From assembly GCF_013167455.1 (NCBI RefSeq), contig NZ_CP038328.1: DNA of 64,000 nt, one strand, 5' to 3'. Shown here piece after piece: positions 32,701-35,700 of the stretch. Each line of letters opens with the position of its first letter. The first letter of the stretch is position 1. Made by a program: the position numbers. The stretch is from Escherichia coli O157:H7. GTDB lineage: Bacteria > Pseudomonadota > Gammaproteobacteria > Enterobacterales > Enterobacteriaceae.

Positions 32701-35700
32701 ATCGCTGATCACTAAGCAGCTCACTGATACATCATGCTGGACGCGATAATTGGAATCTCACGCAGGGAGTAATGTGTAAATAGCAAAATCGCCTGATGCG
32801 CTACGCCTGTCAGGCCTACAAATAACATACAATTTATTGAATTTTCATGACTTTGTAGATCGGATAAGACGCGTTAGCGTCGCATCCGACATAAATAAAG
32901 CGCACTTTTCTAACAACCTGTGGGGGGGATATAGCCGCTTTATTTCAGGCGCTTACCCGCTTCATCAACCACTTTCTCGCCATCTTCCTTGGTGAATGCG
33001 CCTTTTTGCGCATCTGGCAGAATTTCCAGCACCACTTCTGAAGGGCGGCACAGGCGAGTTCCCAGCGTCGTCACCACAATCGGGCGATTAATCAGAATCG
33101 GGTGCTGAAGCATAAAGTCGATTAACCGATCGTCAGTAAATTTATCTTCCGCAAGGCCCAGCTCCTCATACGGTTCGACGTTTTTACGCAGCAGCGCGCG
33201 TACGGAAATCCCCATATCGGCAATGAGTTTGACCAGTTCATCGCGCGTTGGCGGAGTTTCCAGATAATGGATAATGGTCGGTTCTGTGCCGCTGTTGCGG
33301 ATCATCTCCAGCGTATTACGCGACGTGCCGCAGGCCGGGTTGTGATAAATGGTAATGTTGCTCATATCAGTATCTCATTACAAAGTGAAAGAGAGACGTA
33401 GCGCCAGCGCAGCCAGCGTCACAAACAGCACAGGCAGGGTCATGATAATCCCTGTACGGAAGTAATATCCCCAGCTGATAGTCATATTCTTCTGCGAAAG
33501 TACGTGCAGCCAGAGCAGCGTTGCCAGGCTACCAATCGGGGTGATTTTCGGCCCCAAATCGCAGCCAATCACGTTGGCATAAACCATCGCTTCTTTGATA
33601 ACGCCAGATGCCGTGCTGCCATCAATGGACAACGCGCCAACCAGTACCGTCGGCATATTGTTCATAATAGAAGAGAGGAAGGCGGTGAGGAATCCGGTGC
33701 CGAGCGTCGCGGCCCACAGGCCGTTATCCGCCAGCACGTTGAGTACGCCAGAAAGATATTCCGTTAATCCGGCATTGCGCAGGCCATAAACCACCAGATA
33801 CATGCCGAGCGAGAAGATGACAATCTGCCAGGGCGCACCGCGCAGCACTTTACCCGTATTAATCGCATGACCGCGTTTAGCGACGACAAATAATATCAAC
33901 GCGCCCACTGCCGCAATGGCGCTGACCGGAATGCCGAGCGGTTCCAGGACGAAAAATCCCACCAGCAGAAGCAGTAAAACAACCCAGCCAGTTTTGAACG
34001 TAGCAGGATCTTTAATCGCTTCTGCGGGAGATTTCAGCAGCGCCATGTCGTAGTTCTGCGGAATATCTTTGCGGAAATAGAGATGCAACATCACCAGCGT
34101 GGCAACAATCGCGGCGATATCCACCGGCACCATCACCGAGGCATATTCGCGAAAGCCGAGGCCAAAGAAATCTGCGGAAACGATATTCACCAGGTTGGAG
34201 ACAATAAGCGGCAGGCTGGCGGTATCGGCAATGAATCCGGCCGCCATCACAAACGCCAGCGTAGTGCCTTTACTGAACCCTAAAGCCAGCAGCATGGCGA
34301 TGACAATCGGTGTCAAAATAAGCGCCGCGCCATCATTGGCAAACAGGGCGGCAACGGCAGCACCGAGCAGGACAATCCAGGTAAACAGCAAGCGACCGCG
34401 TCCATTGCCCCAGCGTGAAACGTGCAGTGCCGCCCATTCAAAAAAGCCGGACTCATCCAGCAGCAGGCTGATGATAATAACGGCAATAAACGCAGCCGTC
34501 GCGTTCCAGACGATATTCCACACCACCGGAATATCGCCCGGATGTACTACGCCCGTAACTAACGCCAGTACTGCGCCGAGCGTTGCACTCCAGCCGATGC
34601 CTAAACCTTTCGGCTGCCAGATAACCAATACAATGGTCAGGACAAAGATAGCGCCTGCCAGTAACATAATGCCTCCCGGAAAAACACATGTGCAAATCCA
34701 TATGTGTTTAGATAAATTTTTTAACTACAAGTGTTCTTACTGTCTACGGAACAATTTTGTCTGGCCAGGTTGCGGACAATCACCTGAACCTTTTCCTGTT
34801 CGCATCGCCAGGCCTGCTCAATAATTTTCGCGGCCCATGATGGAATATGCGGTGATAAGCGGTAATGAACCCACTTACCCTGCTTGCGATCCAGCAACAA
34901 ACCGCTTTCACGAAGAAGCGCCAGATGGCGGGAGATCTTGGGCTGCGACTGGTCGAGAGCAGTGCAGAGATCACAGACGCATAACTCTCCCAGCTCGCTG
35001 AGCAGTAAAACGATGCCCAGACGGGTTTCATCGGCAAGAATTTTGAACAGTTGGATGGGTAACAGAAATGACATATTGCGCTCCTGATTGTTGCAGGTAG
35101 TGTCTCTCTTCGAAGCGGATAAGTCAAAAACATATATGGTTTAACGAATGTGTATGTGCAGAGGAAGGTAATAGGTGTGAATTAAGCGTTGGCTATTCAT
35201 TTGAAAGGAGGTCTGAATCAGGACGTAAAAAAACCGACTTTGCGTCGGTTTTTTACTTTCCAGCCCAGAGTTGGTGGCTCTGGCTGGAGTGAGAATGCCC
35301 ACATCTAACGGTTCAATACTATTAGCCAGTGGCTAACATTGCAAGCGTTAGCGATTTCTTCAGCTGGAGAAGGGACAGTTTGCTATACATGTTGGTGAAA
35401 GAGGATTTATATACTTTCATCGGGTCGCTGCCGTACCAGGCTTTGTCCGAATCCGGATGTAAAAAAACCGACTTCGCGTCGGTTTTTTTACTCTTCAGCC
35501 CTGAGTTGGTGGCTCTGGCTGGAGTGAGAATGCCATCATCTAACGCATCAATACTAATACCATACTGAAACTATTGCAAGGACATGCTGGTTTTATAACC
35601 TGAATATACTGTATGATTATCCAGTTAGCTCTGAGGCATTTTCACTCTGGCAATGCGCATAAACGCTTTCAAAGTCCTGTTCAGTGGTACGGGTGGTGCC

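What the first reader, a model, noticed from the sequence alone, without database searches (positions are those of the whole stretch)
35382..35437. agrB-agrA spacer contains a ~55-nt segment homologous to internal gor coding sequence
tatacat-gtt-ggtgaaagaggatttata-t-actttca-tcgggtcgctgccgtac (spacer, ~35382-35437) aligns with tatacat-cgc-ggtgaaagaggatttata-c-actttca-cctgatcgtcgccgtac inside gor (~36170-36225) at about 80% identity, in the same orientation. This suggests the dinQ/agr repeat region was built by duplications that captured a piece of the neighbouring gor gene. A plus-strand transcript through the spacer would be antisense to gor mRNA.
Basis: seen in the sequence. Interest (0 to 1): 0.35.

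Follow-up and report, generated by a model that had tools for sequence, protein, structure and literature searches.

The report
Decayed gor fragment between agrB and agrA
The spacer between the two antitoxin RNA genes agrB and agrA of E. coli holds a decayed 53-base copy of part of the neighbouring glutathione reductase gene (gor), most likely left by the old duplication that produced the two antitoxin genes; there is no sign that it does anything today.

Summary
Window 35384-35436 matches gor 36170-36222 (gor nt 1086-1138) without gaps, in the same orientation, at 44/53 identity (z about 17 against shuffles). The window is E. coli O157:H7. Rfam places agrB at 35225-35308(-) and agrA at 35459-35543(-), so the fragment lies in the 98-nt unique spacer between the two agr repeat units.

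It is a gor pseudogene relic. E. albertii carries a gor-like piece at the same junction after its single agr copy, and also the last 30 nt of gor with the stop codon. The ancestral copy therefore probably ran from nt 1086 to the stop (about 268 nt) and predates the split of the two species. E. coli alleles decay differently: K-12 has a 4-nt deletion and differs from O157 at about 25% of positions. About 30% of complete genomes have lost the spacer by agrA x agrB recombination.

The most economical history is one roughly 786-nt tandem duplication of [gor 3' end-dinQ-agr], then a roughly 550-nt deletion that removed the second dinQ and left agrB as an orphan antitoxin. No dinQ' remnant was found, so this step is inferred.

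A plus-strand RNA would pair with gor mRNA, but nothing found points to such an RNA. Low interest.

The parts
35384..35436 (-). gor' core: decayed copy of gor nt 1086-1138 (codons 362-380)
   Evidence: 44/53 identical, ungapped, z about 17. It lies at the same junction as the E. albertii gor'.
35346..35383 (-). Linker between the gor' core and the agrB -35 box. It may be a further gor' remnant (to gor nt 1162) or a dinQ' 3'-end remnant; neither is significant.
   Evidence: Collinear extension test gives p 0.11 (K-12 allele) to 0.94 (O157). The best match elsewhere is dinQ 35875-35904, p 0.2.
35437..35444 (.). 8-nt linker (CAGGCTTT) between the gor' start and the agrA repeat unit. It appears to be original agr flank, comparable with TAGACTTTG after the yhjA stop in Citrobacter.
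   Evidence: By eye from the sequences. E. albertii has TAAATTTT at the same place.
35211..35346 (-). agrB repeat unit (promoter, sRNA 35225-35308, bidirectional terminator 35225-35254, flank)
   Evidence: Rfam RF02891 107 bits. Direct repeat with the agrA unit, 89-91% identity, spacing 234-235.
35445..35581 (-). agrA repeat unit (sRNA 35459-35543, terminator 35459-35491)
   Evidence: Rfam RF02891 92 bits. Its promoter spacer is identical to that of the single E. albertii agr.
35711..35743 (+). dinQ 5' UTR core repeat, the target of the agr sRNAs
   Evidence: the repeat finder family D2; PMC3567139.
35818..35901 (+). dinQ 27-aa toxin ORF (GTG start)
   Evidence: ORF list. RefSeq annotates dinQ at the equivalent place in the K-12 derivative J53.
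36170..36222 (-). Parent segment inside gor (nt 1086-1138)
35955..37307 (-). gor (glutathione-disulfide reductase, 450 aa), intact
   Evidence: ORF; RefSeq annotation gorA.
6594..7991 (+). yhjA. In Citrobacter it directly abuts agr, so in E. coli the ars genes and the rest of the 27-kb stretch lie between yhjA and agrB.
   Evidence: tblastn with the Citrobacter YhjA, 89% identity; L017/L019 layout.

Best explanation
The 53-nt segment is a non-functional relic (pseudogene fragment) of the 3' part of gor. In the common ancestor of E. coli and E. albertii, a segment of about 786 nt was duplicated in tandem. It ran from gor nt 1086 through the gor stop codon, the convergent dinQ toxin gene and the agr antitoxin gene to just past the agr terminator. 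The first copy completes the intact gor-dinQ-agrA. The second copy began with gor' (about 268 nt), followed by dinQ' and agr' (= agrB). In the E. coli lineage a deletion of about 550 nt then removed the rest of gor' and all of dinQ', up to the -35 box of agr'. That left agrB as an orphan antitoxin 235 nt from agrA, with a short gor' stump between them. The stump has since drifted neutrally into two very different alleles, and many strains have lost it by agrA x agrB recombination. What is shown: the gor origin, the junction shared with E. albertii, the former extension to the stop codon, and decay and loss. What is inferred: that one tandem duplication produced both gor' and agrB, and that a second dinQ copy once existed.
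For: Similarity to gor is highly significant and in the same orientation. E. albertii (type strain plus 10 further genomes) has the same arrangement directly after its single agr and an 8-nt linker: AGTACGGCGGCAATCAGGT, 17/19 to gor nt 1085-1103. It then has GCGGCGAAAGAATTCATGACCATGCGTTAA, 26/30 to gor nt 1324-1353 including the stop, z 8-10. So gor' once reached the stop codon and predates the species split. The fragment carries Escherichia-type synonymous codons (TCC TCT TTC ACC) and is closest to Escherichia gor among about 70 enterobacterial gor genes. The K-12 and O157 alleles differ from gor at mostly different sites, and E. albertii lacks their shared changes, so the ancestor was close to gor. 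Geometry: the gor'/gor spacing of 786 nt equals the distance from the left edge of the agrA unit to gor nt 1086. agr-unit homology stops exactly at the -35 box on one side and at the gor' junction on the other. E. albertii agr has the agrA-type promoter spacer while agrB is more diverged, so agrB is at least as old as the species split. Some Citrobacter have gor-dinQ-single agr, so dinQ-agr at gor is older than the duplication. Non-function: there are indels, about 25% allelic divergence against about 3% background, and the spacer is absent from about 1,600 of 5,422 genomes, where a hybrid agr sits in its place. Weel-Sneve et al. already presumed that agrA and agrB arose by tandem duplication (PMC3567139). 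Orphan type I antitoxins are known for zor/orz (PMC11264685).
Against: No significant remnant of a second dinQ was found between agrB and gor' (p 0.2). No lineage with an intermediate structure was found: no E. coli genome has an E. albertii-like long gor', and the metagenome scan gave only one true, E. albertii-like hit. In E. albertii the DNA after the gor' stop is foreign (96% identical to phage-plasmids), so it cannot show what originally followed gor'. The model needs separate secondary deletions in each species. E. fergusonii, E. marmotae and E. ruysiae could not be examined.
Confidence: 0.6

Rival explanations
1. gor' and agrB arose in two separate events. First, gor' was created when a dinQ-agr cassette carrying a gor 3' end entered by single-crossover (Campbell-type) recombination in gor, or by some other partial gor duplication. 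Later a roughly 235-nt duplication of [agr + first ~95 nt of gor'] produced agrB, and the ars-side DNA replaced what followed agrB.
For: dinQ-like modules are patchy among genera and also occur on plasmids (dqlB), so the cassette may be mobile. The E. albertii state (one agr plus gor' with a stop codon) looks like the predicted intermediate. The agrA-agrB spacing is 235 nt.
Against: It needs more events. No second gor' copy follows agrB. No integrase or other recombination gene lies between gor and gor'; only dinQ and agrA are there. The 3' 268 nt of E. coli gor is not unusually similar to gor of the dinQ-bearing Citrobacter (+0.045 to +0.062 against a mean of +0.04, sd 0.058). gor' has Escherichia-type codons. 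agrB is more diverged from agrA than the E. albertii agr is.
Confidence: 0.25
2. The fragment is functional. Either it is the seed of a + strand small RNA, ending at the bidirectional agrA terminator, that base-pairs with gor mRNA, or it is part of a small protein (the 32-aa ORF 35322-35420(-), or the 71-aa ORF annotated by PGAP in some strains).
For: The predicted duplex with gor mRNA is strong (-94 kcal/mol against -45 +/- 6 for shuffles). The agrA terminator hairpin has A and T runs on both sides, which explains the sub-threshold + strand Rfam hit 35401-35491 at 31 bits. PGAP annotates WP_000968019.1 across the region in some genomes.
Against: No + strand promoter-like site was found, though the scan also missed the known agr and dinQ promoters. 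The 18-nt perfect match is broken by a 4-nt deletion in the commonest (K-12-type) allele, which also destroys the ORF. Allele divergence is about 25%. The spacer is absent from about 30% of genomes. E. albertii keeps only 19 nt of this part. The dinQ/agr literature read reports no transcript or peptide.
Confidence: 0.04
3. The resemblance to gor is chance.
For: None beyond the short length.
Against: z is about 17 against shuffles. It is recovered independently by the repeat finder and BLAST. A second, different gor piece lies at the same junction in E. albertii.
Confidence: 0.01

Closest known systems
Tandemly duplicated chromosomal type I toxin-antitoxin loci with orphan antitoxins (zorO/orzO-zorP/orzP and the orphan OrzP of MG1655; also ldr/rdl and ibs/sib, from general knowledge)
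   Same: It shows direct duplication of a small toxin/antisense-RNA module, then loss of one toxin copy with retention of its antitoxin RNA (PMC11264685). Weel-Sneve et al. presumed that agrA and agrB arose by tandem duplication.
   Different: Here the duplicated unit reached into a neighbouring housekeeping gene and left a datable stump of it. The second toxin copy is inferred, not seen.
Partial-gene pseudogene relics left by segmental duplication
   Same: It is a short, promoterless, in-orientation copy of an internal part of an adjacent gene. It decays by substitutions and indels and is polymorphic for presence.
   Different: It is very short (53 nt in E. coli). In some annotations it is misread as part of a hypothetical protein.
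Displaced 3' gene ends beside integrated elements (for example the icd 3' duplication at e14/phage 21; from general knowledge)
   Same: An intact gene, then an insert, then a displaced copy of the gene's 3' part including its stop codon (the E. albertii state).
   Different: There is no integrase or att machinery. The 'insert' is only dinQ plus agrA (about 520 nt). dinQ-agr also sits at gor in Citrobacter, where no clear gor' was detected.
AgrB RNA family (Rfam RF02891)
   Same: Both flanking repeat units are members (107 and 92 bits).
   Different: The spacer fragment itself is not part of the family; the + strand hit scores 31 bits against a gathering score of 40.

Membership tests
gor-derived pseudogene fragment | Nucleotide similarity to the parent gene beyond chance | tested here: met
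   44/53, z about 17; D3; BLAST hit to gorA.
gor-derived pseudogene fragment | Loss of coding integrity and neutral decay | tested here: met
   No start of its own. There is a 4-nt deletion in the K-12 allele and an internal deletion in E. albertii. Allelic divergence is 25/100 nt.
gor-derived pseudogene fragment | The same junction in a sister species (a single ancestral event) | tested here: met
   E. albertii, 11 genomes: agr flank + 8 nt + (A)GTACGGCG....
Tandemly duplicated type I TA module with orphan antitoxin | Two antitoxin genes in direct orientation with unit-wide homology | tested here: met
   Units 35211-35346 and 35445-35581, 89-91% identical.
Tandemly duplicated type I TA module with orphan antitoxin | A remnant of the second toxin copy | tested here: inconclusive
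   The best match of 35347-35383 is the dinQ 3' end (35875-35904) and is collinear, but p = 0.2.
Tandemly duplicated type I TA module with orphan antitoxin | Duplication boundaries consistent with a single unit | tested here: met
   The gor'/gor spacing of 786 nt equals the distance from the edge of the agrA unit to gor nt 1086. Homology ends at the junction.
Trans-acting antisense small RNA against gor | Own promoter on the + strand | tested here: inconclusive
   The consensus scan found none, but it also missed the known agr and dinQ promoters.
Trans-acting antisense small RNA against gor | Conservation of the pairing region | tested here: not met
   The K-12 allele deletes 4 nt of the 18-nt match. 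About 30% of genomes lack the spacer.
Trans-acting antisense small RNA against gor | A detectable transcript | not testable with these tools
   No RNA-seq data are available here. The papers read mention none.
att-type 3'-end duplication by an integrative element | An integrase or recombinase within the insert | tested here: not met
   Only dinQ and agrA lie between gor and gor'.
AgrB RNA (RF02891) | Score at or above the gathering threshold (40 bits) | tested here: not met
   The spacer-overlapping + strand hit scores 31 bits; the flanking genes score 107 and 92 bits.

The most novel reading that the evidence does not exclude
In strains with the O157-type allele, a + strand RNA starts upstream of 35384 and stops at the bidirectional agrA terminator (35459-35491). 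It carries an 18 + 7 nt perfect match to gor mRNA and acts as a gene-fragment-derived trans-antisense regulator of glutathione reductase. This would link the SOS/arsenic neighbourhood to redox control.
Probability: 0.03. Interest if true: 0.6.

Novelty: new member of a known kind. Interest (0 to 1): 0.22.

Why it matters
The relic gives a concrete history to the dinQ/agrAB locus. It suggests that agrB, the working antitoxin in K-12, began as the partner of a second dinQ copy that was later deleted. It dates the duplication to before the E. coli/E. albertii split. It also explains a spurious 'hypothetical protein' call in some RefSeq genomes. This is a small piece of evolutionary bookkeeping, not a new mechanism.

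Tried and rejected
1. Extending the homology beyond 53 nt, to gor nt 1162 or the 3' end, was not significant.

2. A search for dinQ' remnants in 35347-35383 gave a best match that is collinear but has p = 0.2.

3. In E. albertii, the DNA after the gor' stop showed no similarity to the dinQ region. It is phage-plasmid-like instead.

4. A search of E. coli genomes for an E. albertii-like long gor' found no match.

5. A metagenome scan with the junction pattern GATTCGGACAAN{2,10}GTACGGCG returned 120 stretches, of which 119 were chance and one was E. albertii-like.

6. A test for foreign origin of the gor 3' end, comparing 5' and 3' identity to about 70 species, gave no signal.

7. The strand opposite the yhjA tail and flank is weakly similar to gor nt 1094-1154 in several species. 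I considered this as an older gor' or as a recombination substrate. It is not in register with the junction and the cases are not independent, so it is left unexplained.

8. The 14-nt direct repeat flanking agrB (D8, 12/14) is at chance level by my estimate and weaker in K-12.

9. Other Escherichia species could not be fetched, because the one genome-contig scan returned only E. albertii and E. coli for this genus.

Full report
**Context.** The window is E. coli O157:H7; the arsR-gor intergenic region is 100% identical to O157:H7 chromosomes. The layout on the + strand is as follows.
- arsB 33378-34667(-) and arsR 34721-35074(-).
- agrB sRNA 35225-35308(-) and agrA sRNA 35459-35543(-), with Rfam RF02891 scores of 107 and 92 bits.
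- The dinQ target repeat 35711-35743 and the 27-aa DinQ ORF 35818-35901(+).
- gor 35955-37307(-).
- The two agr genes lie in direct repeat units, 35211-35346 and 35445-35581, which are 89-91% identical and 234-235 nt apart. A 98-nt unique spacer, 35347-35444, separates them.

**Observation.** A local alignment of the spacer against gor gives one ungapped 53-nt match, 35384-35436 against 36170-36222, with 44/53 identical.
- The score is 35, against 11.7 +/- 1.4 (max 20.5) for 500 dinucleotide shuffles. The opposite orientation scores 13.
- The repeat finder (D3, 83%) and BLAST against 5,426 E. coli genomes recover the same pair.
- The parent segment is gor nt 1086-1138. On the - strand the fragment still reads [18 protein letters not shown] against Gor [18 protein letters not shown].
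- Homology may continue to gor nt 1162 in the K-12 and 2020N21 alleles (CCGCCAGC), but that extension is not significant on its own.

**Comparative evidence from E. albertii.** A scan of one genome per species with the Gor protein returned 80 enterobacterial gor loci. Among them, dinQ/agr-like sequence next to gor occurs only in the following:
- E. coli;
- E. albertii, with one agr;
- two Citrobacter of the youngae group (L017, L019), with one agr;
- Kosakonia sacchari, which has dinQ one gene away from gor.

E. albertii is the most informative case.
- Directly after its single agr and an 8-nt linker comes AGTACGGCGGCAATCAGGT, 17/19 to gor nt 1085-1103. This is the same junction as in E. coli.
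- After an internal deletion comes GCGGCGAAAGAATTCATGACCATGCGTTAA, 26/30 to the last 30 nt of gor including the stop codon, z 8-10.
- Ten further E. albertii genomes have the same structure.
- The gor copy therefore arose once, before the E. coli/E. albertii split, and originally ran from nt 1086 to the stop, about 268 nt.
- Immediately after that stop codon, E. albertii carries DNA 96% identical to E. coli phage-plasmids. What originally followed gor' is lost there.

**Source of the copy.** Among about 70 gor genes, the O157 fragment is closest to Escherichia gor (44/53) and shares its synonymous codon choices (TCC TCT TTC ACC). Citrobacter of the dinQ-bearing group use other codons there.
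- The O157 and K-12 alleles differ from gor mostly at different sites.
- Their few shared changes are absent from the E. albertii piece. The ancestral gor' was therefore essentially identical to the resident gor.
- The 3' 268 nt of E. coli gor is not unusually close to gor of any dinQ-bearing species.
- Together these favour an intragenomic duplication over import.

**History.** In Citrobacter L017/L019 the order is gor, dinQ, agr, then directly the stop codon of the convergent yhjA. In the window, yhjA is at 6594-7991. The ars genes and the rest of the 27-kb stretch therefore now sit between yhjA and agrB.

The simplest history that explains both gor' and the second agr is one tandem duplication of about 786 nt. 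The unit spans gor nt 1086 to the stop, then dinQ, agr and its flank.
- The D3 spacing of 786 nt equals the distance from the left edge of the agrA unit to gor nt 1086.
- The duplication would give gor-dinQ-agrA | gor'-dinQ'-agrB.
- A later deletion of about 550 nt in E. coli, from inside gor' to the -35 box of agrB, produces exactly the present 235-nt spacing. It also explains why agr-unit homology stops at the -35 box.
- The E. albertii agr has the agrA-type promoter spacer, while agrB is more diverged. agrB is therefore at least as old as the speciation, and E. albertii lost it.
- Weel-Sneve et al. presumed a tandem duplication of the sRNAs but did not mention gor.
- Orphan type I antitoxins are documented for zor/orz.

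The weak point of this history is that I found no significant trace of dinQ'.
- The 37-nt linker best matches the dinQ 3' end and is collinear, but p = 0.2.
- I found no intermediate lineage.
- A two-step alternative therefore stays open: gor' arose first, and a 235-nt duplication produced agrB later.

**Function.** Nothing found suggests one.
- Of 5,422 E. coli genomes with the locus, about 810 carry an O157-type spacer and about 3,017 a K-12-type spacer that is only about 77% identical to it. About 1,600 have no spacer.
- In the genomes without a spacer, a single hybrid agr has an agrA-type promoter and an agrB-type flank. This is the product of agrA x agrB recombination.
- The K-12 allele has a 4-nt deletion inside the longest perfect match to gor, which breaks the reading frame.
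- O157 and K-12 differ at 25 of 100 positions here, against about 3 nearby.
- A + strand RNA would be complementary to gor mRNA (duplex -94 kcal/mol against -45 +/- 6 for shuffles), and the agrA terminator is bidirectional.
- However, no + strand promoter was detected by an admittedly insensitive scan, and the literature read reports no such RNA.

**Verdict.** The fragment is an ordinary kind of object, a decaying partial gene copy, though I found no report of it in the papers searched. Its value is in reconstructing how the dinQ/agrAB locus acquired two antitoxin genes. Interest is low.

Noticed in passing
window 35277-35309, 35512-35544, 35711-35743: In this O157:H7 sequence the dinQ target 33-mer matches the agrA core better (30/33) than the agrB core (28/33). 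This is the reverse of K-12, where agrB is the near-perfect partner. The variable 8-12 nt inside the core (GAGTGAGA...ATCTAAC) co-varies between agrB and dinQ across strains, which suggests changing toxin/antitoxin specificity.
   Followed up: partly
window 35374-35472 (against L001 and L006): The O157-type and K-12-type spacer alleles differ at 25/100 positions, about 8 times the local background. Strain 2020N21 is a mosaic, with an O157-type agrB and spacer and a K-12-type agrA. Deep haplotypes, introgression and local hypermutation are all possible; this is unexplained.
   Followed up: partly
L004 1438-1914 (ATCC 25922); equivalent to window ~35512-35710: In ATCC 25922-type genomes, a 199-nt deletion between the agr core and the dinQ core direct repeats removes both the agr promoter and the LexA-controlled dinQ promoter, while the DinQ ORF remains. 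These genomes made up about 4 of 30 evenly spaced rows in the ranking, and arsRB is also absent there.
   Followed up: partly
L006 1748-1963 (-); equivalent to window ~35322-35540 (-): RefSeq/PGAP annotates a 71-aa 'hypothetical protein' (WP_000968019.1) that starts inside agrA, reads through its terminator and ends in the gor' fragment. It contains [18 protein letters not shown]. It is probably a spurious call created by the gor relic.
   Followed up: partly
L007 4931-5300 and downstream to 7350: In E. albertii, the DNA starting at the gor' stop codon is 96% identical to E. coli phage-plasmids of about 90 kb (annotated as phage tail or hypothetical protein). It is followed by a higB/higA-like pair and slp. 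There are no ars genes there.
   Followed up: partly
window 7930-8010 (- strand) against gor nt 1094-1154; also L008, L010, L019: The strand opposite the last ~13 codons of yhjA plus its downstream flank is weakly similar to the same part of gor as the spacer fragment (p 0.04, 0.07, 0.01, <0.005). The cases are not independent and are not in register with the duplication junction. This is either chance or an older event.
   Followed up: partly
E. coli plasmids and second chromosomal sites: DinQ-like toxin genes (annotated dqlB) occur on E. coli plasmids and at extra chromosomal places, up to 9 dinQ-like places per genome. The dinQ family is therefore partly mobile.
   Followed up: no
window 37373-37472: There are 21 differences per 100 nt between O157 and K-12, in the 3'-terminal part of the rlmJ (yhiR) coding region just upstream of gor. 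This is far above the neighbouring 0-5 per 100.
   Followed up: no
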